Under the pieces are notes generated by a model. The model was not told where the DNA came from. It did no database searches and worked only from the letters and a program-made list of their open reading frames with translations. 64,000 nt of DNA from Candidatus Omnitrophota bacterium (lineage in GTDB: Bacteria; Omnitrophota; Gorgyraeia; Gygaellales; Profunditerraquicolaceae): positions 619-64,618 of the forward strand of contig QZKA01000024.1 of the NCBI GenBank assembly GCA_003598135.1, read 5' to 3'. This document shows, piece after piece, positions 47,278-64,000 of the stretch (the first letter of the stretch is position 1; each line of letters begins with the position of its first letter). The position numbers and the translations under genes are program-made.

Positions 47278-48621
47278 CTATATCAGTGCTTTAAGCACTT
47301 TAGTGACCCTACTATTATTGGGAAGATTTTTTATATCCTTTACCGTAAAATGGCGTTTTGAAAAGTTATTTTGGATTTCTTCCAGGTCTTCTACAGTAAG
47401 TTCATCATTTGCGAATGGCATAAGCGACGGGGCTAATTCTTCTAAATCTCTGCCCTTTATGAGATGCCTATAATTAACATACTCTTCGGTGCCAGGTATA
47501 GGGGTATAAGGTAGTACCACCGGCAAACATCCTAATTTCCAAACGTCTATCAAAGTAAGGAGAATCGATTTCAAACTTTGTTCTGGCAGACCTATCAGAA
47601 CAAATAACCAAATGTCGTTTTCATAACGCATGGTTTTATGGCAAAAATAACCTTCTTCCTTAAATAATTTTACCACCTTCTCAAAATAAGAAAGTTTTAG
47701 TTTCTTATGAAACCTGTGCTGCAAATTAGAATCGCTGCTTTCTAAAGCCAAGCCTATATAGCTAACTCCGCTTAAACGCAATTTTCTAATAATCTCAGGA
47801 TAAATTAAACGTGGATCGAAGCCCTCGGGGATCTGGATAGAAAGATCTAGTTCCAATTCTATAATCCTATCCAGTAATTTTTCAAAATACTGTTTTGCAT
47901 CCTGTAAAATATTTGACTCCCAAAATACTATTTTCCTAATGCCGCTACTAACGCGCAACTGCAACTCAGCGATAACATCTCCTATCGGACGGTGCGTAAT
48001 AATTTTACCTTCGACCTTCGGGACTGCACAGTAGCTGCAGTTGTTACAACAACCGCGAGTGGTTTTTATTATTGCGTATTTATATTCCCTTTCTTTCATT
48101 AACTCCATAGCGGGCGGCAAATCGCTGGCTCCTTTAAATTGTCCGATAATAACATTATCTGCCTTTGATCTCTTGGCATGTTCGGGAGCAAGAGTTGGAT
48201 AAATTCCTCCTATGGTAACAGGGATATCAGGATATAACTTTTTACAGATCTCTACTACCTTGTGGACGCCCTCCCAATAAAAAGTCAAGGATGAACCTAC
48301 GTAGATTTCATCGGGTTTCTTAATTTTTTTTAGCTCAGTATTAAAAAACGAATAAGGCTTACCAATATGATAACGCTTTTTAAATATTTTCTTACTCCCC
48401 ATACCACATCTTTTTTTATCAACATACCTACCTGGCTCCTTATAAGGATGGTCTTCTCCTATATATTTATACATCCCCTCTAGAAAATCAAAAAAGCATA
48501 CCCGGCAACCTTGATTTTTTAAAAAAGCCCCGATTTTTAATAATCCTGTGTTGTAGTCAAAGTTTGCGTTTGGGCGACTATCTAACAAAGGGGGATTTAT
48601 TAGTAGTATTTCTTTAGTCAT
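47278..48621 (-). CDS. B12-binding-domain radical SAM protein (class B)
   Basis: N-terminal cobalamin-binding Rossmann domain (ILLINPPL...) and a radical-SAM core (TTRGCCNNCSYCAVP). Confidence 0.8.
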   Translation of the reverse strand: MTKEILLINPPLLDSRPNANFDYNTGLLKIGAFLKNQGCRVCFFDFLEGMYKYIGEDHPYKEPGRYVDKKRCGMGSKKIFKKRYHIGKPYSFFNTELKKIKKPDEIYVGSSLTFYWEGVHKVVEICKKLYPDIPVTIGGIYPTLAPEHAKRSKADNVIIGQFKGASDLPPAMELMKEREYKYAIIKTTRGCCNNCSYCAVPKVEGKIITHRPIGDVIAELQLRVSSGIRKIVFWESNILQDAKQYFEKLLDRIIELELDLSIQIPEGFDPRLIYPEIIRKLRLSGVSYIGLALESSDSNLQHRFHKKLKLSYFEKVVKLFKEEGYFCHKTMRYENDIWLFVLIGLPEQSLKSILLTLIDVWKLGCLPVVLPYTPIPGTEEYVNYRHLIKGRDLEELAPSLMPFANDELTVEDLEEIQNNFSKRHFTVKDIKNLPNNSRVTKVLKALI

Positions 48622-48648
48622 AGGAATGTTAGGCCTTACAGCCTTACT

Positions 48649-49629
48649 TTATAACGGTTTTATTTCAGAGTCTCCGTAATGAAACACATAATTTAAAAAT
48701 ACTCCTGGGCAATATTGCTCAATTTGACAATGGAAACATTTGCTTAATTTGTGGTACGAAAAAACCCTCGTGTACAAAAATATTGCATCAGATATATCGT
48801 TCTCTATTTTACATAATAAATTCGTTTTATAATTTTTGCTGCAAGAGACTGTCTTGGAAAATTTTTCTGGTGACAGCTCTTTTAAAACACACAAAGGAAA
48901 ACCGACAAAATTAAAATTAGAATTTCTAAATTTCCTTATTATTTCTTTATAAGAAGGTATTAAGCTTTTATAGGGAAGCTTGGCCTTATATTTAAGATGC
49001 AGTATCGAAAGGGGTACTTTTGTTACCTTAGCGCATAGACTAATTATTTTATCTACATGGTTTATATTTTGCTTAAGTAACAATGTGTGCAGATAAATTT
49101 TTACCCCTGGATGTGACCTTAGATTATCCACTCCGCTTCTCAGTAAATTATAACTCTTGTGATTAGCAACTATCTGATTATGCAATTTATTTATACCGTA
49201 TACCGGAATGGATATATTCCTTAATCCGTATCTTACTAGTTTTTCTGTAAATGACGAATTCGAAAAAAATTCTCCGGAAGATATGGTTTCAATTGTCTTA
49301 AAACCATACTTATTTGCAGATTCTAACAAATCCAAAATCCCCGGATAACGCAATGGTTCATTAGCGGCAAGAAGCAAGTGAGATATGTTATTTTTTCTAT
49401 TTAAATGCATCGAATTTTTTAGGCTGGCAAGAATTGAATCGTTATAACCTTTCTTAGGATCATCTTTATGAAAACAAAAAATGCAATAATTACAACATCC
49501 GGTCTGGAAACTTATAATATTATACTTCTTATTACACCCGAGCCCCTTTAATAAATGAAGCTGTTTATCGAATGGGGCAGTAAAAATACTTAAAAGGCCT
49601 TTATTATCTTGGTTAAAATCTAAATACAT
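48649..49629 (-). CDS. radical SAM protein, ~300-aa paralogous family member (copy 1)
   Basis: CCNYCIFC is a CxxxCxxC motif. The C-terminus reads CFHCQIEQYCPG...GDSEIKPL. Closest relative is the second domain of the 694-aa fusion (LHTLLLKQN). Confidence 0.75.
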   Translation of the reverse strand: MYLDFNQDNKGLLSIFTAPFDKQLHLLKGLGCNKKYNIISFQTGCCNYCIFCFHKDDPKKGYNDSILASLKNSMHLNRKNNISHLLLAANEPLRYPGILDLLESANKYGFKTIETISSGEFFSNSSFTEKLVRYGLRNISIPVYGINKLHNQIVANHKSYNLLRSGVDNLRSHPGVKIYLHTLLLKQNINHVDKIISLCAKVTKVPLSILHLKYKAKLPYKSLIPSYKEIIRKFRNSNFNFVGFPLCVLKELSPEKFSKTVSCSKNYKTNLLCKIENDISDAIFLYTRVFSYHKLSKCFHCQIEQYCPGVFLNYVFHYGDSEIKPL

Positions 49630-49641: not shown

Positions 49642-50784
49642 TTAAAAATACGTTTGACTGATTTTTCCAAAAATTAACAAATTTATTATAGGAAATTTAA
49701 CTAATACCGTAATGAAGGCGCCTAAAAATATAAAGGGCGCCAACGGCAAAGTTTTATATATCTCTATTGTTTCCGATGAACGATTTCTCAATAAGTCCGT
49801 TCTAACTTCATTAATTTGATCTTGAGTTAAGCCATCAGGATAGAGTTTACCAATTTTTTTGAAACCAAATTTCAAAATTGACTCATCAGTAAGCTGTAAC
49901 CTATCCGGCAAGTTTGCAACCGGCACCTCTTCTATTATATCATTTCTTAAAGAAAGCAATTTCCGGAGAGAATAAAAAAGCACAAAAAAGTAAGTAAAAT
50001 TCTTTAAGTACACAATAAAACTAAGAATCGCACTTGATCCGAAAATAATGAAAGAATTAACTAGAAGGCAAATCATTAAAAAACTTGAAAAAACAAGAAT
50101 GGATACATGTTTCAATAGGGTTTTATTGAATGTTCTATACAACAAAAGCGGCATTAAATAGCTCAACATTGACAAAGAAGAATCCAATTTTAGTTGAGGA
50201 AAATTCATATTAAGCACAACCAACTGAATCAACATAATAAAAGTAAGGTAACTCAACACAAACCTTAAACATTTAAATATTCTCTTTTTGATATATTTAA
50301 AAATATTTTTTAAGGAAAACAAAAAAACGTCATAAAAACTGCGAGAGCCGCTCTGTAATACCTTATTTTTAATAAAAACAACTACTTTCGTGAAATAAAC
50401 AGCTAACAAGAAAATAAAAAGCAACACAAAGACATTTGTTAAGAAAACAATTATGGGATAAAGCGGCAAAATTTTCTGAAAGGGATTTACTTTTAAAAGC
50501 ACAAAAAATGAAAACATAATAAAAAGCTTAGAATCTCCGGCAGCCCAGAATCCAAAATACCAGATTAAAAAGGCGACCAAAGTTATTAACGCGGCGTTTA
50601 TAATCACAAAAGAAAGAAAATGGAAACTCAAATACTTGAACAACAGCAAATACATAAAACTTATAAATGAAAAAAATATGCCTACGATTACCAAATTGTT
50701 CTTAATTTTTGAATATCTGATGTCGCTATACGAACTAAACAAACCGATGATCAAAAATATTAAAAAATAAATAAAATTTTCCAT
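49642..50784 (-). CDS. polytopic membrane protein with a split prepilin-peptidase (A24/TadV-like) aspartyl-protease signature
   Basis: SYSDIRYSKIKNN parallels the D(L/I)RxxxIPN motif, WAAGDSKLFIM parallels GxGDVKL, and the C-terminal TLPLAPFIFLGAF parallels PFGPFLALGA. A ~200-aa multi-TM insertion sits between the motifs. Confidence 0.55.
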   Translation of the reverse strand: MENFIYFLIFLIIGLFSSYSDIRYSKIKNNLVIVGIFFSFISFMYLLLFKYLSFHFLSFVIINAALITLVAFLIWYFGFWAAGDSKLFIMFSFFVLLKVNPFQKILPLYPIIVFLTNVFVLLFIFLLAVYFTKVVVFIKNKVLQSGSRSFYDVFLFSLKNIFKYIKKRIFKCLRFVLSYLTFIMLIQLVVLNMNFPQLKLDSSLSMLSYLMPLLLYRTFNKTLLKHVSILVFSSFLMICLLVNSFIIFGSSAILSFIVYLKNFTYFFVLFYSLRKLLSLRNDIIEEVPVANLPDRLQLTDESILKFGFKKIGKLYPDGLTQDQINEVRTDLLRNRSSETIEIYKTLPLAPFIFLGAFITVLVKFPIINLLIFGKISQTYF

Positions 50785-50829: not shown

Positions 50830-51807
50830 TTAACGAGTAGCATGAATTCTTCTTATAATTACATCGGGATTACAAAAAATGGGATAGAGTTCTTTGCTTC
50901 CGTAAATATTGATATATTCTTTTTGGATTCCCGCACAAATTCTATTGGCCGAACAATGGGCGCAACACTCAACTTTAATTCTAAATTTCGTAGGCTTCAC
51001 CTGCCTTAATTTATCCGTCCTTTTTTTACTTATAAATGAACAAATATAAAGTTCATTCTTGACTATTTTCCTGGTTTCAGACGAAAGCTCTTCAAAGCCT
51101 TGCATATAACATAATGGAACTCGCTCAATTCTCATTGTCCTCTCATGCGTTCTCAGCAATTCAACAGTTTTCTTCAACTCCAGCTCGATATCTGTATACC
51201 TTGCTACAATCCATTGGTTATTTACTACCCTACTATTAATTTCACCATCCGCCTTCCCCGGGTCGAGATTATTATAAACAAAATGTTTTATACCAGGAAA
51301 AGCCTTAATGAAAAATTTCGCAGTGTTAGACAGATTTTTACAATTAAGCGTATTTATAGTACTATTGAGCGCCACATGGAATCCTACTCTCAATGAGTTC
51401 TCTAGCCCTTTTATTGCCTTTTTAAAATGGCCTTTCTTTTGAGATAATTTGTCTGCGATGCTGCTGCTATCGGAATGAATCGAAATATTTATATCCCTTA
51501 AACCAGCCTTAAAAAGTTTTTTAGTTAAGCGAGGGTCCTCCAGTTTGCAACCATTCGTTATGATCCTGCTTGCAATGCCGTTTTTTTGAATAAATGATAT
51601 TACTTCCGGCAAAAAGCTTACCAATGTCGGTTCTCCGCCAGTAAGAATAATTTCAGTGATGTTCTGTTTTTTTAAAGCGATAATTTTGTTTTTTATTTCA
51701 CCTAAGCCATAATTTTTTTTAAATTGGGGGTTAGAACAAAATAAACATTCATTATTACATTCCCGGGTAATCTGAAGATAAGCTGCTTTTCTAGACCTTG
51801 GGCTCAT
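50830..51807 (-). CDS. radical SAM protein, paralogous family member (copy 2)
   Basis: CNNECLFC, GGEPTL, ISIHSDS, ERVPLCYMQGFEE and the C-terminal CCAHCSANRICAG. Confidence 0.75.
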   Translation of the reverse strand: MSPRSRKAAYLQITRECNNECLFCSNPQFKKNYGLGEIKNKIIALKKQNITEIILTGGEPTLVSFLPEVISFIQKNGIASRIITNGCKLEDPRLTKKLFKAGLRDINISIHSDSSSIADKLSQKKGHFKKAIKGLENSLRVGFHVALNSTINTLNCKNLSNTAKFFIKAFPGIKHFVYNNLDPGKADGEINSRVVNNQWIVARYTDIELELKKTVELLRTHERTMRIERVPLCYMQGFEELSSETRKIVKNELYICSFISKKRTDKLRQVKPTKFRIKVECCAHCSANRICAGIQKEYINIYGSKELYPIFCNPDVIIRRIHATR

Positions 51808-51819: not shown

Positions 51820-52746
51820 TTATTTAAAAGTAAATAATAAAGGTTTCTCGTTTTTGATTTTACCCACCTCTTTATCGTTAAGAAAAACGGAAATGGTTTT
51901 TTTACCAAGAATAATGTTATTTCCGTTCTCAAGTCTATTATACGCACAAAGATAATTTCGATCTTTCTCAAAGCCGTGGTTTTGATTTATGCTTTTATAT
52001 ATGAAATTATAACGGGCGCTTCCTGCTGACATATCAACACTATTAAAAAAAAATGTTTTTCCGTTATTCAAAACAAGTACAGGAAGCTTTAAAAAAAACT
52101 CAATGTATTCCCGAATTTCAGTTTCCGAAACACAAATCGAATTTAGGACTTTTTGCGCATACTTTTTTGACTCATTACACGTATAAGAACATGGAAAATG
52201 TGAAATTAGCGCCCCAAAACGAGAGCCGGGGAATGCGTGTAAATTGTTTAAGTAAAATGAAGGCGTTCCTTTGGTATTCTCAAATGCACTAGATATTAAT
52301 TTTATTGATGGAGAATTTGTATTTTGTTTAAAGAAATTTATGCAGCATTGTGGGTATCCTAATAAATGGCCTATGGTTTCATCAACCATAGAGAAAAACT
52401 TTCTTCCTGACGAATATATACCTTTTATTCTTTTATCTTCCTGCTCTTTTAAAGCCTTAGCAAGTTTTGGTAATTTCGATGCGTAAAATATTATTTGGCC
52501 GCCATGGCTATGTAAAGGTGCCGCCCTTAACATCTTTTTTGTTCTTTTGATTTTATAATCGGAATGGGTTATATATATTCCGTTTTTCTCATAAATTTTT
52601 TTTATTCCTTTAAATTGCCCATGGTCGATTATGCTTCTCTGTGTAGGCTTAATACCATTTCTCAATGCCAAATACTCAAAATTAATATTTTCAATAACTT
52701 TGATGGCTTTCAATATATGTTGCGTATCGATTTTAACTCTACTCAT
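51820..52746 (-). CDS. hypothetical Cys-motif protein (308 aa) embedded in the rSAM cluster
   Basis: Motifs HLLGYPQCC and HFPCSYTC. No recognisable family. Confidence 0.4.
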   Translation of the reverse strand: MSRVKIDTQHILKAIKVIENINFEYLALRNGIKPTQRSIIDHGQFKGIKKIYEKNGIYITHSDYKIKRTKKMLRAAPLHSHGGQIIFYASKLPKLAKALKEQEDKRIKGIYSSGRKFFSMVDETIGHLLGYPQCCINFFKQNTNSPSIKLISSAFENTKGTPSFYLNNLHAFPGSRFGALISHFPCSYTCNESKKYAQKVLNSICVSETEIREYIEFFLKLPVLVLNNGKTFFFNSVDMSAGSARYNFIYKSINQNHGFEKDRNYLCAYNRLENGNNIILGKKTISVFLNDKEVGKIKNEKPLLFTFK

Positions 52747-53663
52747 TTGATCGGGGCGAGCTCAAGCCAGCCTATCTTTTCAGCATACGTTACATCAATC
52801 CCGCTGCATAATTTGTAGTGCCTGCAAGGTGAGCAAATCGGTGTTTTTGTAGTAGCTGAACTACGGTGGAGCATTGTCTTTTCTTTATTTTTAATATAGT
52901 ACGGTGTTTCTGGAATCCCTACATAATTCTCGTAACCACCCATTAGGCAAAATGGCATAGTTTCTATCTTAATGGGCAGCTCTTTTTTGTCGCCATACGA
53001 ACGCTTTAGTTTGTCAATCGCTTTTTTAAATTCTTTCGCTAACTCTGAGTATGAAACAAAGAGCTGATTAAAAAATTTATCTGCATTTCCTGCATACATG
53101 AGGGTGTTCAGTATTATACAATCGATTTTTTCGAAAGCCAGCAACATCTTAATAAGAAAATAAATATTTTTATAATTTAGCTTGGTAAGCGTAGAACATG
53201 TATTTACCTTTAACCGAAAAATATCTTTTAAGGCAACTATATTCTTCAATCCTTGGACGGTTTGCGCATATCCATTGGGAGTACGAGTTAAAGCTTCATG
53301 AATTTTTTTTGAGCTTCCATGGATAGAAATATTGACTTCTGTTAAGCCTGCTTTGACGAGCTCATCGACATAGCTACCGTAACTCAGCAATCTTCCGTTT
53401 GTTTGAAGGCAAATGTGTTTATATCCTTTTTGTTTCGCTAATTTAATAAAATTAGTTAAATTTTTATTAAGCGTGGGTTCGCATGTAGTAAAAAGCATTG
53501 AGTCAAGCGATTCGATCTTTTTACTTTGTTTTAAAAACCCTTCGGGTGTAAGCCAAGCAGCGTTTTTAAAAGACAGGTCCGGTTTGCGATCAGAACAAAA
53601 AACACAATTATTATTACAGGCAGCGCTTGTAAATATGGTAAGCCGGTCATTATCCATACGCAC
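52743..53663 (-). CDS. radical SAM protein, paralogous family member (copy 3)
   Basis: CNNNCVFC, ISIHGSSKKIHEALT, ETMPFCLMGGYEN and CSPCRHYKLCSG. Confidence 0.75.
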   Translation of the reverse strand: MRMDNDRLTIFTSAACNNNCVFCSDRKPDLSFKNAAWLTPEGFLKQSKKIESLDSMLFTTCEPTLNKNLTNFIKLAKQKGYKHICLQTNGRLLSYGSYVDELVKAGLTEVNISIHGSSKKIHEALTRTPNGYAQTVQGLKNIVALKDIFRLKVNTCSTLTKLNYKNIYFLIKMLLAFEKIDCIILNTLMYAGNADKFFNQLFVSYSELAKEFKKAIDKLKRSYGDKKELPIKIETMPFCLMGGYENYVGIPETPYYIKNKEKTMLHRSSATTKTPICSPCRHYKLCSGIDVTYAEKIGWLELAPIK

Positions 53664-53698
53664 CCTATGTTACTATGCTTCTACTTTCTCAGCCGTAT

Positions 53699-55783
53699 TC
53701 AAGGTAAACTGGTTAATGGCTTAAATTCGCCATCGCCATACAGCTTTAAATATAGGTCGGGAATCCCCATACAAAAATTATTTAATTTGCATTGACTGCA
53801 TTTAGTCAAAAAAGATATTTTATCTTCCATATACGTTCCTTCATTACAAAAAATTAACCTGTTCATTGAAATTTTAACGAAAGGATTGTTTTCATAAAAA
53901 TTACCTGGTTGAAGCAATTCGTCTTCAGTATAACCGGATATGGCACTTTTTAAATAAAATTTTGGCAACACACAATACGGTATCCTGATTTTAGCACGGT
54001 CCATAACCTTGTTATGCTTTAATATTTTCGCAATGTCAGAGAATTTAGGAGCAAATTCATAGTAATCGCGCTGGTCGCTATTTCTTGGTCTTACCATGCA
54101 AAAATTTATCGGAAATATTCTAAAGTAAGAAGCAATAAAATCGTATATTTTGGATATAAATAAATAGTTTTGCTTCAAAAGCAAAGAGTGCAACATTATT
54201 TCTACCTTAGGAAATCTCTGCAAATTCCTGATTGCGTTTAATAAGATTTTGAAGCTCCCACGGGAACCAGTAATTAAATCGTGAGATTCGTCATTATATC
54301 CATAAATGGACAATTGGACTTTGTCAACACCGGAAGCACAGAACTTACGGGTAAAATTAAAATTAATCAATCTTTCGCCAGAAGTGGCCAGCCTAATTTC
54401 TCTATAGCCTAATTCTTTCGCATATTTTATTACTCTTAATAAGCCCGGGTAATTTAAGGGTTCATTGCCTCCTATCCTTAGCGTATCTATTTTCAAGCTA
54501 TTGTGGATATAGGATAAATCTGATTCTATCTTATTCGGCTTTACCACAATTTCCTTATTTTTTTTGTTTTTCAGAGAACGCGAGCAAAAAATACAGCCTT
54601 TTTTACATGGAGAAGGAATTTCGCAAGAGACAAAACAGTTTTTAGAAGATTTTTCTGGTATGGGCACTAAGACTTTATATCCGTTGTTTTTAATGCGGCC
54701 GCACTGCATTCCATCGCAGGTAGCGGTAAATTTACATAAAGCGCATCTAGGGCTTTTTACAAAATAACGGTTTTTTATAAAAAAATCTAGAAAGTCAAAT
54801 ATATCTATATCATGGCCTTTATTAACTATCGGCTGACTTTCAAGCATCCTTTCAGAAATCTCGTTGTTTTTTATGCAATACGGCATATTTTTTGGCTTGA
54901 GGATACCGTCACGTTTAAATAACGATATGTCATCGCAAAAACTTTTCAAAACACAATAATCGCACCGAGTGCCTTTGCATCTTAAAGTAATATTATTTTT
55001 AAGATATTTCTCAAATTCTGCTTTTCTCCCCATTACTTCATAAAATAATTTTGCAGGGCTCTGTATTAAGTCTTCATAACCTTCGAAATATTGAGCGGGA
55101 AAACGGTTTGTGAAAATATTTAATTTTCTGTTTTTTGATAATTCAAATGCCTTTTTCAAATAGCTTAATTCTTTTTCAATGTCATAAAAAAGGATACTTC
55201 GATTATTCCACGCCCTACCAAAAGGCACTATTTGTAATAAATCAAATTCGCTTACGCCTATTCCTATAAAAAACTTTATAATACTTTCAAGCCTCCTTAC
55301 ATTTAATTTATTAACAACGATATCTTGGCTTACAATTAGCTTAGGAGACTTTAGCGCATTAATTAATCCCGCTAACGACTGAAAATAAGAGCCAGCTACT
55401 TGCGTTATACGATCATGGGGTTTTTCCTCGCATTCATGAATAGAAAAAGTTATCTCTTTTAAGCCGGAGGATATTGTATCCTGTAAAAAACTCTTATATG
55501 CAAACATCCTCCCGTTAGTTATAACCTGTATATGGCTATATCCTATCTTATTTGCGAATCTAACAATCTCTTGAAATCTTGGATGCAAAGATGGCTCTCC
55601 CCCGCTCAAAACTGCCCTTCTTATATTTTCTTTCCGCCCCTTCATTAATTCAGATTTCACTAGAGAGAACTCGATACAACTTCCGTCTTGTGATTCATAA
55701 TCCAAACAAAAAAGGCATCTATTATTGCACGCCTTAGTTAATCGGACCCAATATCTTTTTTCCTCCGGAGAACTTTTTGACAT
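53699..55783 (-). CDS. tandem double radical SAM protein (two complete rSAM domains, 694 aa)
   Basis: Domain 1 has CNNRCLFC, GGEPSL and SIHECEEKPHD. The linker carries CDYCVLKSFC and CALCKFTATCDGMQCG. Domain 2 has CKKGCIFC, GGNEPL and the C-terminal CSQCKLNNFCMG. Confidence 0.75.
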   Translation of the reverse strand: MSKSSPEEKRYWVRLTKACNNRCLFCLDYESQDGSCIEFSLVKSELMKGRKENIRRAVLSGGEPSLHPRFQEIVRFANKIGYSHIQVITNGRMFAYKSFLQDTISSGLKEITFSIHECEEKPHDRITQVAGSYFQSLAGLINALKSPKLIVSQDIVVNKLNVRRLESIIKFFIGIGVSEFDLLQIVPFGRAWNNRSILFYDIEKELSYLKKAFELSKNRKLNIFTNRFPAQYFEGYEDLIQSPAKLFYEVMGRKAEFEKYLKNNITLRCKGTRCDYCVLKSFCDDISLFKRDGILKPKNMPYCIKNNEISERMLESQPIVNKGHDIDIFDFLDFFIKNRYFVKSPRCALCKFTATCDGMQCGRIKNNGYKVLVPIPEKSSKNCFVSCEIPSPCKKGCIFCSRSLKNKKNKEIVVKPNKIESDLSYIHNSLKIDTLRIGGNEPLNYPGLLRVIKYAKELGYREIRLATSGERLINFNFTRKFCASGVDKVQLSIYGYNDESHDLITGSRGSFKILLNAIRNLQRFPKVEIMLHSLLLKQNYLFISKIYDFIASYFRIFPINFCMVRPRNSDQRDYYEFAPKFSDIAKILKHNKVMDRAKIRIPYCVLPKFYLKSAISGYTEDELLQPGNFYENNPFVKISMNRLIFCNEGTYMEDKISFLTKCSQCKLNNFCMGIPDLYLKLYGDGEFKPLTSLP

Positions 55784-55793
55784 AATGGCGTTA

Positions 55794-56720
55794 TTAATTC
55801 TCCTCCTTCTTAAACTCTTTCTGGCCGTATTTTCTTAGGTATTCTTGCCAAATGCCCCAGCAATTACTACTCACTGGACAATTCTGACATTCTTTAACCT
55901 TCACATAGGTAATGATTTTATTTTTTGATACCGCATAATACTCCCTGTACTTTGTTACTGATGAATGGGGTAAAAAATTTTCTTCATTTCTGGAATCACC
56001 GTATCGAATCGAGTTATTTTTAAAGTATTTATGAAAATAGCAGCCAACCGGTGGGTTAAGCAAGCACCATGAGAAACCAAGGCCTTGTCCTTTATCTAAG
56101 GCACGTACTATATAAGGCGCTGCTTCTGATATACGCGGCGTGAGGCTTTTAAATATAGATTCATTTTTCGTGATTATATACATAAATTCCGCCCTCTTTA
56201 TCTGATATGCAAGTAAGATTTTACCAATAGACGGCAAATATTTGTAATTTTGCTTGGTAATCGTAGTATTGGTTCCTATCTGATTGAACCCTAATTTTTT
56301 TAAATTTTCTATCCCTTTTACTAATTGCTGAAAACTCCCTGCTGTATCGGTAAGATAATCGTGCACCTTGGGGCTATGGCCGTGCAAAGAAAAATCTATT
56401 TCTGATACACCGGATTTTATCAATTGCCGGGCAAAATCGTCGTACGCCAACATTCTGCCGTTTGTACTTATTCTCACTTTTTTAAAACCGATTTTTTTTC
56501 CGTATGCAATCAACTCGCAAATGTCCTTCCTTATAGTCGGTTCTCCTCCGATTAGATTAAGCCAGCTCTTCCCGATCTTTTTTGCTGCTAAAATTTCACT
56601 TTTAACTTCTTCTGTCGTTTTCTCGGACAGATGACGGTTCTCCCGGTCATAACAAAATAGGCAACCGTTATTACATTTAAATCCAAATACAATAGCGGCA
56701 TGATCGCTTATGTTGTTCAT
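55794..56720 (-). CDS. radical SAM protein, paralogous family member (copy 4)
   Basis: CNNGCLFC, IGGEPTI, FSLHGHSPKVHDYLT and CQNCPVSSNCWG. Confidence 0.75.
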   Translation of the reverse strand: MNNISDHAAIVFGFKCNNGCLFCYDRENRHLSEKTTEEVKSEILAAKKIGKSWLNLIGGEPTIRKDICELIAYGKKIGFKKVRISTNGRMLAYDDFARQLIKSGVSEIDFSLHGHSPKVHDYLTDTAGSFQQLVKGIENLKKLGFNQIGTNTTITKQNYKYLPSIGKILLAYQIKRAEFMYIITKNESIFKSLTPRISEAAPYIVRALDKGQGLGFSWCLLNPPVGCYFHKYFKNNSIRYGDSRNEENFLPHSSVTKYREYYAVSKNKIITYVKVKECQNCPVSSNCWGIWQEYLRKYGQKEFKKEEN

Positions 56721-57649
56721 ATAGCAAACTCCTTGTCTTTAAATTCAAGGTAATATCTTTTAAATATCCCGCCGCAGTTACTACTCATAGAACAGCTTTC
56801 GCATACATGGATCTTAATCCTATTACGAGTCGGATAACAACTCAAAGTTTCCTTTAAAAATATATTTTTAGAACTTTTCCGCTGCTCAACTGTTATTCTA
56901 GGGGACCAGTGAAAATCATTAGTGTAAAGTTCATAACCCTTTAGCACGCAAAGAGGAAGCCCAAAAAATCTAATAATTAGAGCTTTTTTATTCGCATATT
57001 CAACTAATCGAGGGACTGCCGTTTTTATTTCTTTTAAAGGAACAACTAATTTTTTAAAATTAGCCAATCCATTTCCTTCCGGGGCGAAGTTAGAAAAAAG
57101 TATTTGTTTGACTTTTTTAAAATTGCTGACCAAATCGATTACCTTCTCAAGTGAGCTAACATTATATTTAGTAATAACTGTGTTAATGAACAAAAAAATG
57201 TCCCCCTTTGACCTTTCAATATTTTCTAATGCGTTCATACATCTGCTGAAGCTTTCTCTGTTGGCGGTGTGAAGATTATGAAGCGTTCCGCTATGACCGT
57301 GCAGAGAAAAACAAATTTCATCAACATAAAAAAGAGTTTTATCGCAAAACCTTTTTAAGGAAAATAAGCCTCCGTTAGAACTACAATACACTGTATACAT
57401 TAACTGCTTTGCGGATTGGATTATTTCTACAAAACTCGGGTGAAAAGTCGGCTCTCCCCCTGTTAATGTAATGTGGTTTAAGCCTTTTTCGGCAAAATAT
57501 TTTAATTTATTTTGTATTATATTGAAGTCAACAAAATGGTTATTACGTTTATTTAATTGGCCTGCCTCGGAACAAAAAATGCAGTTATTGACACATTTAT
57601 ACGATATGTGAAATTCTAATCTCTTTGCCTTAGATCTATTTCCCGTCAT
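56717..57649 (-). CDS. radical SAM protein, paralogous family member (copy 5)
   Basis: CVNNCIFC, TGGEPTF, FSLHGHSGTLHNL, GLPLCVLKGYEL and CESCSMSSNCGG. Confidence 0.75.
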   Translation of the reverse strand: MTGNRSKAKRLEFHISYKCVNNCIFCSEAGQLNKRNNHFVDFNIIQNKLKYFAEKGLNHITLTGGEPTFHPSFVEIIQSAKQLMYTVYCSSNGGLFSLKRFCDKTLFYVDEICFSLHGHSGTLHNLHTANRESFSRCMNALENIERSKGDIFLFINTVITKYNVSSLEKVIDLVSNFKKVKQILFSNFAPEGNGLANFKKLVVPLKEIKTAVPRLVEYANKKALIIRFFGLPLCVLKGYELYTNDFHWSPRITVEQRKSSKNIFLKETLSCYPTRNRIKIHVCESCSMSSNCGGIFKRYYLEFKDKEFAI

Positions 57650-57651
57650 CT

Positions 57652-59070
57652 TTATCCATAAAGTAAGTAAGATAGTTGGAAGTCAATATTCCGGTATTCA
57701 TTCTTATTCTTATCAACTAATCCTGAATATCTAGCCAAAAAACGACCATCAAGAAAGCAATTTGAATAAATGTATCTTTCACATCTTGTTTTCGCAGATA
57801 ACGTAATAAAATTTCTGTCTTCTCCCACGGGGCACATTTTTTTTATTAACTTGAGTTCCCTTGGATATAGCTTTTCGGGTTCTTCATTGAATATTTTTTG
57901 AAACAAATTTTTATCAATTCTCCCTTCTTCCTGAATAGAGTTTATTATATTGAAACGCATCTCTAAATCCTTTGATAATTGGAACGCGAAGAGTTTAGGG
58001 AAAATATTTCGTTTGAGATTTCTTTCATAATCCGGATAGTGTAGGTCTTTTACGTAGTACATCTTTTTAAACGCATGTGAGATTGCCCCCCACCCTAATC
58101 CCAAAACCGAACTATTAAATTTATACATGTCAAAAAATTGTAAATTTTCTTTATTTGTACTGTAATCCTCCAACGCATAAGGATACGCACTGCTAATCAT
58201 CTGGTACGCTAAATCGAGCATCTTTTTACAGCGGATTACATCACTAAAGTTTAATGTAAGGCCGTTTTTAGTAAACCTTGTAAAAACATCTGGACAAAAA
58301 GAGTTAACGTGGATAGTATCTGGTTTCAGTTTTAAAATATTTTTTAACGAGATTTGGAACGATTCAATTGATTGATAAGGAACCCCTGCCATCAAATCAA
58401 CATTGATATGGCGTATCTTCAATTTTCTACAATTTTGATATAGCTGAAAAACTAATTTTGCATTTTGCGGCCTTTGGAGTTTCTTGAGGACATTTTTATC
58501 CAGCGATTGAACTCCGATAGTTACTTTGTTTACCCCATAATCCTTAAGTATTTTTACTTTCTCATAAGAGCACGTGTATGGGCTAAGTTCAACCATAAAT
58601 TGCTCTTTATTCTCCACATTATAATTTTCTGAAATCATGACCATGAGTCTTTTGAGATTGGCAGATGATAATATTGAAGGCGTACCGCCACCTATATAAA
58701 CGGTTTTTGCTTCCAATTTCTTTGGAAAATCCAATAATTTTATTTCTTTTTCCAGTGCATTAAGAAAGCGGGAATGTGACTGATCATTAGTCTGGGGGAA
58801 TGATAGGGTGTTACAATAAAAACACTTGCTGACACAAAATGGAATGTGGACATATATACCGAATCTATCGTGGCTACCCTTCTCTTTAAGGATGGATGTC
58901 GCAACAGATCGCCAAGATTTTTTTACTTCCTCTAGGCGTATTGATCTTCTTTGGAGTCTCAGTACCGAATACGGCGTTCCTAAGCCATAAAAAATCAAAT
59001 CCCTGGTTATGCACTTAAACAGCTCAAGCTTCTTATTAACTTCATTACTTAAAAGGGACAAGTTCGGCAT
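57652..59070 (-). CDS. HemN/HemW-like radical SAM protein (coproporphyrinogen-III-oxidase family)
   Basis: YVHIPFCVSKCFYC, GGGTPS and VTIGVQSLD. Confidence 0.75.
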   Translation of the reverse strand: MPNLSLLSNEVNKKLELFKCITRDLIFYGLGTPYSVLRLQRRSIRLEEVKKSWRSVATSILKEKGSHDRFGIYVHIPFCVSKCFYCNTLSFPQTNDQSHSRFLNALEKEIKLLDFPKKLEAKTVYIGGGTPSILSSANLKRLMVMISENYNVENKEQFMVELSPYTCSYEKVKILKDYGVNKVTIGVQSLDKNVLKKLQRPQNAKLVFQLYQNCRKLKIRHINVDLMAGVPYQSIESFQISLKNILKLKPDTIHVNSFCPDVFTRFTKNGLTLNFSDVIRCKKMLDLAYQMISSAYPYALEDYSTNKENLQFFDMYKFNSSVLGLGWGAISHAFKKMYYVKDLHYPDYERNLKRNIFPKLFAFQLSKDLEMRFNIINSIQEEGRIDKNLFQKIFNEEPEKLYPRELKLIKKMCPVGEDRNFITLSAKTRCERYIYSNCFLDGRFLARYSGLVDKNKNEYRNIDFQLSYLLYG

Positions 59071-59971
59071 CCGAATATTTTAAGAAATATTTTTCGTAAA
59101 CGCCTCCGCATATGCTATTCTTTGAGCATTTTTTACACTTGCGGGTTTTTATTCTTCCGATATCGATTTTAAAATTGTTTTCGATATATTTCCCCGGCTC
59201 ATTCCATAATCGTATTTTTCCATTATGATCTTTCTGATTATCAATTTTGAAGGGTTCCCATAAATCATAGGAATACTGATATCTATCTCCTAAAATACAC
59301 ATAGGAATACCGGAAAACCTGATTTTAATATTTTTGGACTCGCAAAAGTTTATTGCTTTTATTACGTGTGGGGAAAGAACAGAAAATTTAGGAAAAATCT
59401 CGTAAAATTTTCGGCTCCCCTCTCCTGTAGGTACAATAGACATACATTGATATTCGTTTATTCCAAAATTATGAATCAACTCAGCTATGTTGGTTAAAAA
59501 TTTATAATTAAGACTGGTTATCGCAGTGGTTGCTTGAAGTCTGCCCTTATAATATTTCTTCAGATTTTTCATTCCTTGAAAGACAGATTTAAAAGCTGCC
59601 GGGTTACGGGTATTAATTGAATGAATTTTATTATTATGCCCGTGTATAGAAATCATAATTTCGTCGAGATAAGGCAATGTCTTGATGCAAAACTCATAAG
59701 AGCTGAACATAATTGCATTTGAAATAATAAATGTATTATAATGTAATGCCTTTGACAATTTTAATATTTCGGGAAAATGAGAATGTAATGTTGGCTCCCC
59801 TCCTACAAAGTGTACAAGATTTGCCCCTTTAGACCTTTCAGCTACTAATATATTCTTAATTTTCTCAAATGAGAGCTCAGAGCCATCAAGGTTATTTCTT
59901 TCGCTGCAAAAAATACATCTATTACAGCATTTTTTTACAATAAAAAGGTCAATTCGTCTGGTGTGTACCAT
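59045..59971 (-). CDS. radical SAM protein, paralogous family member (copy 6)
   Basis: CNRCIFC, VGGEPTL, ISIHGHNNKIHS, GIPMCILGDRYQ and CKKCSKNSICGG. Confidence 0.75.
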   Translation of the reverse strand: MVHTRRIDLFIVKKCCNRCIFCSERNNLDGSELSFEKIKNILVAERSKGANLVHFVGGEPTLHSHFPEILKLSKALHYNTFIISNAIMFSSYEFCIKTLPYLDEIMISIHGHNNKIHSINTRNPAAFKSVFQGMKNLKKYYKGRLQATTAITSLNYKFLTNIAELIHNFGINEYQCMSIVPTGEGSRKFYEIFPKFSVLSPHVIKAINFCESKNIKIRFSGIPMCILGDRYQYSYDLWEPFKIDNQKDHNGKIRLWNEPGKYIENNFKIDIGRIKTRKCKKCSKNSICGGVYEKYFLKYSDAELVPFK

Positions 59972-60905
59972 ATTCGTAAGGAAGAACTGAACAATACATA
60001 CTAATCTCTTTGGCCCTGGTAGAATTTAGAAAGGTCAATCCCAGGGCAGTAGGATAAATACAACTGTGAAATGTCGCATAAAGATTATTTAATCCGTAGA
60101 TAAATTTATTTATACTCAAAAGGGGAACTTTCAACTTCTTGATATCTGACCATCTTTCTTTCGGATTAAAATTGCACTGGAATTCTCTGGTTTCATAAAT
60201 TAAATAATTCTTCAGAAAAGCTATCGTTCCTGGTTTTTTTAATTTGACCGCAGCAAGGTAAAATACATTTTTCTTTGGTGAATTTTTGAAAAATACGCTA
60301 AATTTAGATTTGAAGTCGTTATGCAAAAAGCTAAATTTGTTTAATTCTTGTAGCGCATGATACCTAAAATAAAGCTTAATTGACATTTGATTACTATTCG
60401 GGCAAAGCACTAATGCAAGCGCACAGATTTCATATCGTAAATATAAACCGACCATATTCGGATCGTAGCCCGATATCAAACACAACTTATACAATATATC
60501 GTTTTTCAAAAAAGGGCCGCATTCAACTTCAATTTTTAAAGTGGGGGCCCTGTCTGATTCAGCCCACTCAAACCCCAAAGTGACTGGAAAAGCTTTAATT
60601 ACATAGATTGCTTTTTCCGCTTGTTGTCGCAATTCCCCATCGTAACACAATCGTATTATTGAACGTATTTTATTGAGAAATTCGACTCTCTCCCCTGAAT
60701 CATTAATACTAAATCTCAAAAGATGTTTAGGCCTTCTATTAATTTTAAAAGAAAAATCAAACTTAAAAAAATCAAGACTACGCATTTGGTAATCATCAAA
60801 GAGGATTTTGATAATACATGGGAAATTTTTCTTTTCATAAATATTATTTTCTCTTGCAATTTGTTCTATAATATTTCTGTAACAAGTAAGGATGTTAGTG
60901 CTCAT
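59949..60905 (-). CDS. hypothetical protein (318 aa) homologous to the C-terminal domain of the 624-aa rSAM fusion
   Basis: KFDFSFKINRRPKHLLRFSINDSGERVEF aligns with KFDFSISASDSNARSLRFSYNDFGEKKEF at residues ~330-360 of ORF 61951..63825. Confidence 0.45.
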   Translation of the reverse strand: MSTNILTCYRNIIEQIARENNIYEKKNFPCIIKILFDDYQMRSLDFFKFDFSFKINRRPKHLLRFSINDSGERVEFLNKIRSIIRLCYDGELRQQAEKAIYVIKAFPVTLGFEWAESDRAPTLKIEVECGPFLKNDILYKLCLISGYDPNMVGLYLRYEICALALVLCPNSNQMSIKLYFRYHALQELNKFSFLHNDFKSKFSVFFKNSPKKNVFYLAAVKLKKPGTIAFLKNYLIYETREFQCNFNPKERWSDIKKLKVPLLSINKFIYGLNNLYATFHSCIYPTALGLTFLNSTRAKEISMYCSVLPYEYGTHQTN

Positions 60906-60913
60906 TTAAAAGA

Positions 60914-61957
60914 TTAAAAACTGCGATTGGCTAATGCGTTATTTAAATATGCAACAAAATTTGACATTAATTGGCCCGCTAAGATAGTATTATTCAGATA
61001 TTTGGTAACATTATTTTCACGGAAAATTATTTCCATTGCTTCTTCATTAGTAAGCCGCTTTTTCTCAAACGCATCCATACTCTCTTTTATTTCGTTGATA
61101 TTCCCCAGGATGAACTTCCTTTTCCTTTCATAGTTTTGAATTAAATAACTGATACACGCAGAGTAGATGTTTCCGTCAAAATCCACGGATATCTCTGTAT
61201 TCATCCTAAATGGCGGGAACCATTCTGTCAGGTTTTGCAACCGAATATCATTTTTTAGTCTTAGTTTTAAATACAGACTCCTTAATTTAATCAGATTCCT
61301 TGCCAAAACTATTCTATCGTTGTTTGACCATTTTACTCCACAGGCAATCATTATGAATATATTTCTAAAGCCTAAATTTACTAAATGGCTGAAATTGTCA
61401 ACAATTCTGCCCACTGTCATGGGAGAAACTACCATACTGACCTGGCAATCTGTATTATATTTAAAAATTATCGGAAGGTTGCGGACAATAAGAGAATACG
61501 AGTCGGGTAAACCATTCTTTTGCGGCCTATTTAACCTCTGCGCTCCAGGGCCTCCATCCAGACTTAGCTCAAGAAGTACATTGTTTTCTTTGAAGAACCT
61601 TACTTTTTCTTCATTCAACAATACTCCGTTTGTTGTAAGAATAGGGGTTAATTTTCTTTTTTTGGCATTTGCTACTTTGTTTGCATACATTATTCCTTTC
61701 TTTAAAATCTTGAAAGGCAGCATTAGTGGTTCGCCGCCGAAAAAATGCAATTGTAAAACGTCTGCTGAGGAAGTCATCAAAAAATCGACAGATTTAAGCA
61801 AAACGTGCTCGGACATATATCTTTTTGAACTTTGCGATACAAAGCAGTATTTGCACTTCAAACAACAGTCATGGGTTAATAACAGTAACAGTCTAGTTGT
61901 TCTAAACTCAGTCCGCTCCCCTATTAAATTGTTTCCTTTTTTTTCTGAAATCACCAT
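60914..61957 (-). CDS. anSME/SPASM-like radical SAM core lacking the C-terminal Cys-rich domain
   Basis: LLLLLTHDCCLKCKYCF, FFGGEPLM and ELSLDG. There are no C-terminal cysteine clusters. Confidence 0.65.
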   Translation of the reverse strand: MVISEKKGNNLIGERTEFRTTRLLLLLTHDCCLKCKYCFVSQSSKRYMSEHVLLKSVDFLMTSSADVLQLHFFGGEPLMLPFKILKKGIMYANKVANAKKRKLTPILTTNGVLLNEEKVRFFKENNVLLELSLDGGPGAQRLNRPQKNGLPDSYSLIVRNLPIIFKYNTDCQVSMVVSPMTVGRIVDNFSHLVNLGFRNIFIMIACGVKWSNNDRIVLARNLIKLRSLYLKLRLKNDIRLQNLTEWFPPFRMNTEISVDFDGNIYSACISYLIQNYERKRKFILGNINEIKESMDAFEKKRLTNEEAMEIIFRENNVTKYLNNTILAGQLMSNFVAYLNNALANRSF

Positions 61958-63825: not shown

Positions 63826-64000
63826 CAGTTTAAAGAAGAAATGAACTCGGTAAGCTTATAATCTATATTAATCGTGGATTTTAAGACTCTGAAAGGAGTA
63901 CATTTTTCGACAATTTTACCGAGATCTGCCTGCATAATCAAGCGTTTTATTTTTTTTAAACTTCTAATTGAATTAACGTTTCCGAGTTTAAATTTTTTCG
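63826..64000 (-). CDS. 3' end of an upstream minus-strand gene in the same operon (partial, unknown function)
   Basis: The open frame ends ...KLTEFISSLN, and its stop overlaps the start of the following gene (atga). The gene begins beyond the window. Confidence 0.4.

What the first reader, a model, noticed from the sequence alone, without database searches (positions are those of the whole stretch)
49642..50784. Expanded prepilin-peptidase-like intramembrane aspartyl protease inside the rSAM operon
The N-terminus carries both catalytic-Asp motifs of A24/TadV peptidases (SYSDIRYSKIKNN and WAAGDSKLFIM), and the extreme C-terminus carries the family's PLAPFIFLGAF helix. Between them lies a ~200-aa multi-TM insertion. 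Such a protease could remove a class III (pilin-like) leader from a small substrate. No Tad/Flp pilus genes are nearby.
Basis: partly seen in the sequence, partly recalled or inferred. Interest (0 to 1): 0.7.

Follow-up and report, generated by a model that had tools for sequence, protein, structure and literature searches.

The report
Aspartyl protease in His-Xaa-Ser cluster
This 380-residue membrane protein has the fold and both catalytic aspartates of prepilin/preflagellin peptidases and belongs to a large unannotated family built into giant radical-SAM "His-Xaa-Ser" peptide-maturation clusters of uncultured bacteria and archaea, which makes it the likely leader-cutting protease of those systems.

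Summary

The protein is not a one-off. An exhaustive search finds 1,603 relatives (277 at E<=1e-30), and those with a source name are called "hypothetical". In CPR, DPANN, Elusimicrobiota and Omnitrophota the gene almost always follows a ~300-aa HxsC-like radical SAM gene at the end of a tandem rSAM array.

The syntenic Omnitrophota cluster carries bona fide HxsB, HxsD and an HxS-repeat precursor just beyond this contig's end. The window therefore holds the downstream part of an expanded His-Xaa-Ser system.

Best reading: a dedicated GxGD-type protease that removes the conserved leader of the HxS-repeat precursor. The substrate and cut site are inferred. No classical class III signal was found.

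The parts
49642..50784 (-). Gene for the 380-aa A24-like (GxGD-type) intramembrane aspartyl protease homolog, the subject of the finding
50389..50784 (-). Residues 1-132: A24 catalytic core (TM1-TM5). D21 is codon 50722-50724 and D84 is codon 50533-50535, in the motif W-A-A-G-D-S-K-L-F.
   Evidence: Pfam match 8-123. D21 126/126, D84 125/126, K86 126/126. Pfam profile positions ~14/~77 against GspO 14/78.
49966..50388 (-). Residues 133-273: family-specific insertion. It has a basic cytoplasmic amphipathic segment and about four extra TM helices.
   Evidence: Hydropathy. AF2 helices 109-144, 150-192, 202-225, 227-248, 250-280. Positive-inside pattern. No Pfam or NCBIfam match.
49750..49965 (-). 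Residues 274-345: ~70-aa charged cytoplasmic alpha/beta domain with conserved D-G-L...Q (G318 111/126, L319 105/126, Q323 105/126)
   Evidence: Only weak sub-threshold Arc_PepC / Arc_PepC_II hints in relatives.
49645..49749 (-). Residues 346-380: last TM helix with the conserved F-P-F-A-P-x-x-F-x-G-x-x-x-T motif (P347 101/126, G355 105/126, T359 112/126). It is the counterpart of the C-terminal 'AFGPWLALG' helix of GspO.
50830..51807 (-). 325-aa HxsC-like radical SAM gene directly upstream (45-nt gap). This is the conserved partner of the protease gene in nearly all loci.
   Evidence: Pfam Radical_SAM. Best NCBIfam hit HxsC TIGR03977, 102 bits, below cut-off. Adjacency in other loci.
47278..49629 (-). 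Two downstream radical SAM genes that end the operon: a 326-aa rSAM (48649-49629) and a 447-aa B12-binding rSAM (47278-48621). rpsU follows at 47014-47175.
51820..52746 (-). 308-aa DUF483 protein, a recurrent member of these clusters
   Evidence: Pfam DUF483, 29 bits. Recurs in L001, L091 and L066.
52743..59971 (-). Tandem array of six radical SAM genes: 306 aa, 694 aa (two rSAM domains), 308 aa, 310 aa, 472 aa (HemN/STM4012-like) and 308 aa. Most are HxsC/HxsC4-like.
59949..60905 (-). 318-aa protein with an ABBA / PT-barrel (peptide/aromatic prenyltransferase) fold
60914..61957 (-). 347-aa radical SAM whose best hits are PapB/HxsB-type RiPP maturases, below cut-off. Pfam finds Radical_SAM and Fer4_12 but no SPASM domain.
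61951..63825 (-). 624-aa fusion of an HxsC4-like radical SAM domain (1-295) and a second ABBA-like domain (about 335-561), paralogous to the 318-aa protein
   Evidence: The rSAM domain is 50-62% identical across CPR, DPANN, Elusimicrobiota and Myxococcota.
63828..64000 (-). 3' end of a further radical SAM gene that runs off the window. It is 74% identical to the C-terminus of the 309-aa rSAM that directly follows hxsA in the syntenic MAG207 cluster.

Best explanation
The gene encodes an active GxGD-type (A24 superfamily) intramembrane aspartyl protease. It belongs to a distinct, unannotated subfamily that is a dedicated component of expanded His-Xaa-Ser (HxsA3/A4-type) radical-SAM peptide-maturation systems.

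Proposed mechanism:
1. A small ribosomal precursor (about 80-160 aa) carries a conserved ~30-aa basic leader ([IL]P-x-[IL]KK-x-[IL]-x-x-FL-x-x-EEGKI-x-KK), a short hydrophobic segment and C-terminal H-x-S repeats. It is modified in the cytoplasm by HxsB, HxsD and the battery of HxsC-like rSAM enzymes, and possibly by the two ABBA prenyltransferase-like domains.
2. The hydrophobic segment enters the membrane.
3. The protease holds its two Asp residues at the cytoplasmic membrane face, next to a family-specific cytoplasmic domain and four extra helices. It cuts at or near the leader/hydrophobic boundary (conserved K-x-[G/A]), as prepilin peptidases cut after a small -1 residue. This releases the leader and allows export or anchoring of the mature product.
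4. The family-specific parts are proposed to recognise the leader or to dock the rSAM encoded immediately upstream.

Shown: homology, fold, Asp conservation, predicted topology and gene linkage. Inferred: catalytic activity, substrate identity, cleavage site and order of events.
For: Protease identity:
- Pfam A24 covers the whole profile, and 102/126 relatives match it.
- D21, D84 and K86 are essentially invariant over sequences only ~25% identical.
- D21/D84 fall at Pfam profile positions ~14/~77, against 14/78 for the two motif Asp of GspO.
- MAFFT co-aligns GD-x-KL and the C-terminal Pro/Gly helix with GspO.
- The positive-inside pattern places both Asp residues and the soluble domain in the cytoplasm.

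Dedicated role:
- 32 of 80 loci fetched through the first rSAM carry a family member within 10 kb, on the same strand in 28 of the 32, and in most gene-order maps it comes right after a ~300-320-aa rSAM.
- Five family members chosen independently of the rSAM and with upstream DNA available (P0004, P0006, P0007, P0050, P0120) all follow an rSAM gene.
- A precursor-seeded locus (L094) contains rSAM, the A24-like gene, HxsD, an HxsB-like gene and the HxS precursor.

Hxs identity:
- In syntenic MAG207, HxsB scores 481 bits (cut-off 370) and HxsD 59.8 (cut-off 50). An HxS-repeat protein lies two genes upstream of the first rSAM.
- Synteny runs to the window's edge.

Substrate plausibility:
- The precursors share a sharply conserved leader, and G/A occupies the boundary position in 17/18 sequences.
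- In the characterised HXS system, N-terminal HxsA processing is non-canonical, essential, and has no identified protease (PMC13128918).
Against: - The window itself has no precursor, hxsB or hxsD gene, because the contig ends.
- The precursor's hydrophobic stretch is only 13-16 aa, lacks Glu at +5, has a hydrophobic rather than basic -2 residue, and is followed by AxA- or lipobox-like sites. Signal peptidase I or II might suffice.
- In the truncated loci, co-occurrence of the protease and a recognisable precursor is not statistically significant (11 of 32 against 8 of 48, Fisher p = 0.11). Thirteen protease loci show neither HxsA nor HxsD within 10 kb.
- The four-gene proteobacterial HXS system processes HxsA without such a protease.
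- This protein's Pfam score is below the gathering cut-off.
- Profile searches of PDB sequences and Foldseek did not recover FlaK.
- The first Gly of GxGD is Ala, Ser or Thr in most members.
- No biochemical data exist.
Confidence: 0.5

Rival explanations
1. It processes a different membrane-inserted substrate of the cluster, or it acts like a signal-peptide peptidase. In the second case it clears or trims the long leader-plus-signal fragment after signal peptidase I/II has released the HxS-repeat peptide, rather than making the primary maturation cut.
For: The precursor signal looks Sec-like, with AxA or x-A-G-C sites after a short h-region. Other secreted proteins recur in the clusters: the 'TTYYPSPYG' protein next to hxsD and the c4 repeat proteins after the protease gene in CPR. 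GxGD proteases include signal-peptide peptidases (established knowledge).
Against: A24-type enzymes characterised so far cut at the cytoplasmic face N-terminal to the hydrophobic segment (established knowledge). The other secreted proteins occur in only a minority of loci and have ordinary Sec signals. The only universal neighbour is the rSAM.
Confidence: 0.2
2. It is mainly a non-proteolytic membrane scaffold or export conduit. It would tether the adjacent rSAM or maturation complex to the membrane, or pass the modified peptide across it, with the A24 core retained structurally.
For: About 210 family-specific residues include four extra TM helices and a conserved cytoplasmic domain. The gene frequently overlaps or abuts the upstream rSAM gene, for example in L091, L092 and L004. 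The EpeP precedent in RiPPs combines cleavage and export (PMC10885120).
Against: Near-absolute conservation of both Asp residues, the Gly before the second Asp and the following Lys across ~25%-identical sequences argues for retained catalysis. There is no ATPase or transporter signature.
Confidence: 0.12
3. It is the organism's ordinary prepilin/pseudopilin peptidase that happens to lie in the rSAM operon.
For: It has A24 homology. A classical pilin-like ORF occurs ~9 kb upstream of the first rSAM in one Omnitrophota locus (L024 211-798). A faint N_methyl protein lies two genes downstream of the protease gene in L092.
Against: Linkage to HxsC-like rSAM arrays is conserved across bacterial and archaeal phyla. 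No pilus, Tad or T2SS genes lie near the gene in the window or MAG207. No G/A-x4-E ORF is found in the window, L001 or L009. The architecture differs from PilD, TadV and FlaK.
Confidence: 0.05

Closest known systems
FlaK / PibD (archaeal preflagellin/prepilin peptidases, MEROPS A24B; structure 3S0X)
   Different: Sequence identity is 16%, and no sequence-level hit to FlaK was obtained. The query has ~10 TM helices instead of 6 and is 380 aa long, against 186 aa in the 3S0X chain. It carries [A/S]-A-G-D rather than G-x-G-D. There are no archaellum or pilus genes nearby. Archaeal A24 C-terminal domain models hit only weakly.
PilD/GspO and TadV/CpaA (bacterial type IV prepilin peptidases, A24A)
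   Same: Both match Pfam PF01478. The motifs correspond: D-[IF]-[RK]-x-x-x-[IL]-x-[ND] (GspO SVIDFRTQLLPD, query SYSDIRYSKIKN), G-D-x-K-L (GYGDFKLL, AAGDSKLF) and the C-terminal helix (AFGPWLALG, PLAPFIFLG).
   Different: No N-terminal methyltransferase or Cys-rich region was detected (Pfam finds only the A24 domain). A ~210-residue insertion lies before the last helix. The genomic partners are radical SAM enzymes rather than pilins or secretion ATPases. The family HMM does not align the catalytic regions of GspO at sequence level.
HXS antiphage system HxsA-D (Li et al., Nat Commun 2026, PMC13128918); NCBIfam TIGR03976-03979
   Same: The syntenic clusters contain bona fide HxsB and HxsD and an HxS-repeat protein, and the many ~300-aa rSAMs are closest to HxsC/HxsC4. 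In HXS the repeat protein undergoes an rSAM-dependent, non-canonical N-terminal cleavage.
   Different: Canonical HXS has four genes (D-B-C-A), is 99.7% Pseudomonadota, and has no protease gene. Its HxsA has a short Sec signal, mid-protein repeats and a peptidoglycan-binding domain. Here there are at least 15 genes including 12 rSAM genes, two ABBA-like domains, DUF483 and the A24-like protease. The precursor is small, leader-bearing and ends in the repeats. The window's rSAMs score below the HxsC cut-offs. An antiphage role is untested.
NCBIfam HxsA3 (NF038309), HxsA4 (NF038313) and HxsC4 (NF038332) variant models
   Same: Repeat proteins in loci with the A24-like gene pass HxsA4 (L053 131.5 bits, L066 106; cut-off 55). 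The repeat protein of the second Omnitrophota cluster, L024, also passes (60 bits), although its A24-like gene would lie beyond the fetched range. HxsC4 is the best hit for several window rSAMs. Curators therefore already recognise these variant Hxs systems.
   Different: No NCBIfam model matches the A24-like protein. The members that carry a source name are called 'hypothetical protein'. I found no paper describing the protease component or these expanded clusters as Hxs systems.
Intramembrane proteases of RiPP pathways (M50 EpeP, TglG/TmoG)
   Same: Both are membrane-embedded proteases encoded next to radical SAM peptide maturases and proposed to cut, and possibly export, the modified peptide (PMC10885120).
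   Different: Those enzymes are zinc metalloproteases. The 2023 review of RiPP leader proteases lists no aspartyl, A24 or prepilin-type protease.

Membership tests
Peptidase A24 / GxGD intramembrane aspartyl proteases | Two conserved Asp residues at the cytoplasmic ends of two TM helices, at the family's homologous positions | tested here: met
   D21 126/126 and D84 125/126. Approximate Pfam profile positions ~14/~77 against 14/78 for GspO D94/D158. The cytoplasmic side is supported by the positive-inside pattern.
Peptidase A24 / GxGD intramembrane aspartyl proteases | Second Asp within a G-x-G-D motif | tested here: inconclusive
   The Gly before the Asp is kept (G83 116/126), and D-x-K-L follows as in GspO (GYGDFKLL). 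The first Gly is Ala 73, Ser 33, Thr 10, Pro 7 and Gly 3 of 126, so the motif is [AS]-A-G-D.
Peptidase A24 / GxGD intramembrane aspartyl proteases | Score above Pfam PF01478 gathering threshold | tested here: not met
   24.5 bits against 26.5 for this protein, although the match spans profile positions 1-102 of 104. 102/126 relatives match at E<0.01, best 1.6e-9. This marks a divergent subfamily rather than a non-member.
Peptidase A24 / GxGD intramembrane aspartyl proteases | FlaK-like fold | tested here: met
   [not shown]
Peptidase A24 / GxGD intramembrane aspartyl proteases | Conserved C-terminal TM helix with a Pro/Gly motif | tested here: met
   F-P-F-A-P-x-x-F-x-G..T is conserved. It pairs with GspO 201-217 in hhalign, HMMER and MAFFT, though with weak statistics.
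Peptidase A24 / GxGD intramembrane aspartyl proteases | Substrates with class III (prepilin-type) signal peptides, and pilus, archaellum or secretion genes in context | tested here: not met
   There is no G/A-x4-E ORF in the window, L001 or L009 and no pilus genes nearby. The candidate substrate has a non-classical signal.
Peptidase A24 / GxGD intramembrane aspartyl proteases | Aspartyl endopeptidase activity | not testable with these tools
   This needs biochemistry or genetics.
His-Xaa-Ser (Hxs) system | HxS-repeat protein (HxsA-type) encoded in the cluster | tested here: inconclusive
   None is in the window because the contig ends first. Syntenic MAG207 has one (L009 8688-9059; HxsA3 49.6 bits, cut-off 65). 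L024 passes HxsA4 (60, cut-off 55) and L053/L066 pass clearly.
His-Xaa-Ser (Hxs) system | HxsB rSAM/SPASM maturase | tested here: inconclusive
   In syntenic MAG207, L009 6829-8250 scores 481.4 bits on TIGR03978 (cut-off 370), full length. Inside the window only an HxsB/PapB-like enzyme below cut-off is present (60914-61957).
His-Xaa-Ser (Hxs) system | HxsC radical SAM maturase (TIGR03977 / HxsC4 NF038332) | tested here: not met
   HxsC or HxsC4 is the best hit for six window rSAMs, but all are far below cut-off, for example 102 against 267.9 and 190.9 against 500. They are HxsC-like paralogs, not equivalogs.
His-Xaa-Ser (Hxs) system | HxsD (LLNDYxLRE protein) | tested here: inconclusive
   There is no hit in the window. 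L009 6193-6621 scores 59.8 and L024 55.3 (cut-off 50). Twenty-four of the 80 rSAM-seeded loci have an HxsD-like gene.
His-Xaa-Ser (Hxs) system | Compact four-gene D-B-C-A organisation; antiphage activity | tested here: not met
   The organisation is at least 15 genes here, against four in 99.8% of described systems. Antiphage activity is not testable with these tools.

The most novel reading that the evidence does not exclude
This family would be the first GxGD/A24-type aspartyl protease dedicated to leader removal in a ribosomal peptide (RiPP-like) pathway. It would also identify the class of enzyme behind the unexplained, non-canonical N-terminal processing of HxS-repeat effectors. By extension, in the four-gene proteobacterial HXS antiphage systems a host prepilin peptidase (for example GspO or PppA in E. 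coli) could be the missing 'host factor'. The expanded clusters (a dozen rSAMs, two prenyltransferase-like domains and, in Elusimicrobiota, nitrogenase-like reductases) would make a heavily modified, membrane-associated His-rich peptide of unknown function in CPR, DPANN, Omnitrophota and Elusimicrobiota.
Probability: 0.3. Interest if true: 0.8.

Novelty: new variant of a known kind. Interest (0 to 1): 0.6.

Why it matters
A24/GxGD proteases are known almost only as pilin, archaellin and pseudopilin leader peptidases. A large, unannotated subfamily (1,603 detectable relatives) that is hard-wired to radical-SAM His-Xaa-Ser clusters would extend the substrate range of this protease class to modified ribosomal peptides.

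It would also give the 2026 HXS antiphage work a concrete, testable candidate for the kind of protease that performs HxsA's non-canonical N-terminal cleavage.

It reinterprets the 'extensive radical SAM suites' noted in groundwater Elusimicrobia as Hxs-type peptide-maturation clusters. It also shows that Hxs-type systems are widespread in CPR, DPANN, Omnitrophota and Elusimicrobiota, not confined to Pseudomonadota.

Tried and rejected
- Sequence searches of the PDB with the protein and with the 126-member profile did not reach FlaK. They returned only insignificant MthK matches.
- Foldseek against the PDB gave nothing (E>1). The afdb50 library was unavailable.
- hhalign and HMMER of the family profile against the single GspO sequence aligned only the C-terminal helix. 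MAFFT misplaced the first Asp motif. The homology of Asp positions therefore rests on shared Pfam profile coordinates, which are approximate.
- The AF2 coordinates are not exposed, so the Asp-Asp distance could not be measured.
- The word-index homolog search suggested a tiny family of 6 hits. The exhaustive search overturned this.
- A scan for classical prepilin signals found one ORF far upstream in L024 and none in the window, L001 or L009.
- The 198-aa protein next to hxsD in MAG207 at first looked class III-like (MVKG|A...). Its homologs show ordinary Sec signals, so it was rejected as a substrate.
- Arc_PepC / Arc_PepC_II hits to the C-terminal region are sub-threshold.
- The rSAM next to the protease gene is only moderately enriched for cross-locus orthology (46% against ~27% by chance).
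- Protease-precursor co-occurrence in the truncated loci is not significant (p = 0.11).
- No near-identical precursor from the window's own organism exists in the protein collection.
Full report
**1. Observation**

The ORF exists as described: 49642..50784, minus strand, ATG start, 380 aa. The three motifs are at residues 18-30 (SYSDIRYSKIKNN, D21), 80-90 (WAAGDSKLFIM, D84) and 347-357 (PLAPFIFLGAF). The start is shared with homologs that are 67% and 66% identical. The gene sits 45 nt after an rSAM gene and 12 nt before the next one.

**2. Is it an A24-type protease?**

- Pfam Peptidase_A24 matches residues 8-123 over almost the whole profile (1-102 of 104) at E 3.9e-5. The score is 24.5 bits, just under the 26.5-bit gathering cut-off. 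NCBIfam has no model for the protein, and PDB sequence searches find nothing.
- The word-index search suggested a tiny family of 6 hits. The exhaustive profile search found 1,603 relatives at E<=1e-3 and 277 at E<=1e-30, mostly full-length at 360-420 aa.
- In a 126-member alignment averaging 25% identity, D21 is invariant, D84 is present in 125/126 and K86 is invariant. The consensus around the second Asp is W-A-A-G-D-A-K-L-F. Pfam recognises A24 in 102 of the 126 members.
- E. coli GspO, a bona fide prepilin peptidase (Pfam 104.9 bits), shows the same three motifs: SVIDFRTQLLPD, GYGDFKLL and AFGPWLALG. In shared Pfam profile coordinates the query's Asp residues fall at about 14 and 77, against 14 and 78 for GspO.

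**3. Architecture**

Hydropathy, the model's helices and the positive-inside rule across the family all point to ten TM helices with N-out/C-out topology. Mean K+R is 3.4, 8.4, 2.8 and 13.4 in alternate loops, against 0.3-0.9 on the other side. Both Asp residues and a ~70-aa charged alpha/beta domain (274-345, conserved D-G-L...Q) lie on the cytoplasmic side.

FlaK has six TM helices plus a beta domain (PMC4985597). The family adds a basic amphipathic segment and about four TM helices (133-273). The 'insertion' is real, but it is not purely membrane. Its last part may correspond to the archaeal A24 C-terminal domain, supported only by weak Pfam hints.

**4. Context in the window**

Positions 47.3-64 kb form a low-GC block (33% against 45%). 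The block holds one minus-strand operon:
- 12 radical SAM genes, one of them with two rSAM domains
- a DUF483 protein
- the A24-like gene
- two copies of an unannotated domain

The ~300-aa rSAMs are closest to HxsC/HxsC4, one is PapB/HxsB-like, one is HemN-like and one is B12-dependent. All score below the family cut-offs. No pilus genes occur from about 14 kb to 64 kb.

**5. What the cluster is**

- The 67%-identical homolog lies in a fully syntenic cluster in an Omnitrophota MAG, also at low GC.
- Upstream of that cluster's first rSAM are, in order: a secreted protein, HxsD (59.8 bits, cut-off 50), a bona fide HxsB (481 bits, cut-off 370), a 187-aa unknown protein, a small protein ending in ...HSSHGSHSSHGSHGQW, and a 309-aa rSAM.
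- The last 57 codons of the window are 74% identical to the end of that 309-aa rSAM, and the contig ends about 0.7 kb later. The hxsA-hxsB-hxsD part therefore lies just off this contig.
- The window is thus the distal part of an expanded His-Xaa-Ser system.

**6. Is the protease a system component?**

Three independent seedings agree.
- (a) Of 80 loci fetched through the first rSAM, 32 carry a family member within 10 kb, on the same strand in 28 of the 32. In most gene-order maps it comes directly after a ~300-320-aa rSAM at the end of a tandem array; the 34 loci analysed hold 183 rSAM ORFs. By taxon: 13 of 19 CPR loci, 8 of 18 Elusimicrobiota and 5 of 15 DPANN.
- (b) Five family members chosen independently of the rSAM, and with upstream DNA available, all follow an rSAM gene.
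- (c) A locus seeded on a precursor homolog (L094) contains rSAM, the A24-like gene (360 bits), HxsD, an HxsB-like gene and the HxS precursor.

Twenty-four of the 89 sources scanned (window plus 88 loci) encode HxS-repeat proteins. Those from Elusimicrobiota pass NCBIfam HxsA4.

**7. Candidate substrate**

Twenty such precursors, 77-158 aa long, were collected. They share this layout:
- a basic N-terminus
- a sharply conserved leader ([IL]P-x-[IL]KK-x-[IL]-x-x-FL-x-x-E-[ED]-G-K-I-x-K)
- K-x-[G/A] at the start of a 13-16-aa hydrophobic stretch
- a short linker that often has an AxA or x-A-G-C site
- H-x-S repeats ending in G-[QSN]-[WY]

A small residue at the leader/hydrophobic boundary is what A24 enzymes cut after. 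However, the short hydrophobic region, the missing Glu at +5 and the downstream signal-peptidase-like sites make this a non-classical signal. No classical prepilin ORF is present, and the 'MVKG|A' protein next to hxsD is Sec-type.

**8. Comparison with known systems**

The characterised HXS antiphage system has four genes, is 99.7% Pseudomonadota and has no protease gene. Its HxsA undergoes an essential, non-canonical N-terminal cleavage that depends on HxsB, HxsC and HxsD, and no protease has been identified (PMC13128918). A canonical HxsA (Aeromonas plasmid) has a short Sec signal, mid-protein repeats and a peptidoglycan-binding domain.

NCBIfam already models the HxsA3, HxsA4 and HxsC4 variants, but not the protease. 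The members that carry a source name are called 'hypothetical protein'. A 2023 review of RiPP leader proteases lists no aspartyl or A24 enzyme.

**9. Verdict**

With high confidence this is a divergent but probably active A24/GxGD protease of a new subfamily dedicated to expanded Hxs systems. That it removes the precursor's leader at the cytoplasmic membrane face is the best-supported mechanism, but it is inferred (about 0.5). The rivals are a role on another substrate or after signal peptidase, a scaffold or export role, and a housekeeping prepilin peptidase. Novelty: a new variant of a known kind.

Noticed in passing
[not shown]
   Followed up: yes
window 47300-64000: The whole cluster is a low-GC block (32-35% against ~45% for the rest of the window). 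The syntenic MAG207 cluster shows the same contrast (37-38% against 45-47%). This is consistent with horizontal acquisition, yet the cluster occupies the same chromosomal site next to rpsU in both genomes.
   Followed up: partly
L046 2390-6041; same ORF clusters in L050 and L060: In Elusimicrobiota, NifH-like and nitrogenase-component-1-like genes lie in the same clusters as the HxsC-like rSAM arrays and A24-like genes. L043 is GWA2_69_24, a genome named by Meheust et al. 2020 for its rSAM suite beside a novel nitrogenase paralog. That 'suite' appears to be an Hxs-type cluster.
   Followed up: partly
window 51820-52746 (-); L091 11168-12145; L066 13414-16599: A DUF483 protein recurs in these clusters. 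It sits once directly after the protease gene and once within a ~1,060-codon stop-free frame that has not been checked as a real gene. Its function is unknown.
   Followed up: partly
L009 5593-6189; homologs in L024, L045, L043, L053, L073, L087: A secreted protein with a Sec signal followed by a conserved '...(E)KITLTTYYPSPYG' motif is encoded next to hxsD (within 124 nt in 5 of 7 sources; Omnitrophota and Elusimicrobiota).
   Followed up: partly
HxsD-like proteins, e.g. L049 5046-5534 and L053 12064-12723: The HxsD-like proteins of these clusters are longer than the 90-position HxsD model. They carry a conserved C-terminal 'DPLGIA-x-PWEEKYG' motif followed by a Lys-rich tail.
   Followed up: no
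L002 2280-3098 and L007 1396-2211: In two related loci the gene after the A24-like gene is an Amj-family (alternate lipid II flippase) homolog.
   Followed up: no
L095 (Omnitrophica, 83-kb contig) and L091/L096: Other precursor- or protease-seeded clusters add further genes: a DUF5838 protein, a diphthamide-synthase-like PP-loop ATPase, Peptidase_U32, a PMT-family glycosyltransferase, and an Rce1-like CPBP intramembrane protease a few kb upstream. The accessory gene set is highly variable.
   Followed up: no
window 53699-55783 (-): A 694-aa protein contains two complete radical SAM domains in tandem (Pfam reports 2 stretches). Similar double or triple rSAM fusions (680-955 aa) occur in other loci.
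   Followed up: no
L024 211-798: This is the only classical type IV pilin-like ORF found (MSVKTRA|VTLVELMV...). It lies ~9 kb upstream of the first rSAM of that Omnitrophota cluster and is probably unrelated to it.
   Followed up: no
L010, L062, L068, L048, L004 (CPR loci), genes after the A24-like gene: Large secreted or anchored repeat proteins (ORF cluster c4) often follow the protease gene in CPR genomes.
   Followed up: no
window 29996-31057 (-): An identical protein is encoded on NCBI MAG contig JAGVBV010000025.1 (GCA_020059565.1). The window's organism, or a near-identical strain, is therefore represented by a public MAG that could be used to look for the missing hxsA-hxsB-hxsD segment.
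   Followed up: no
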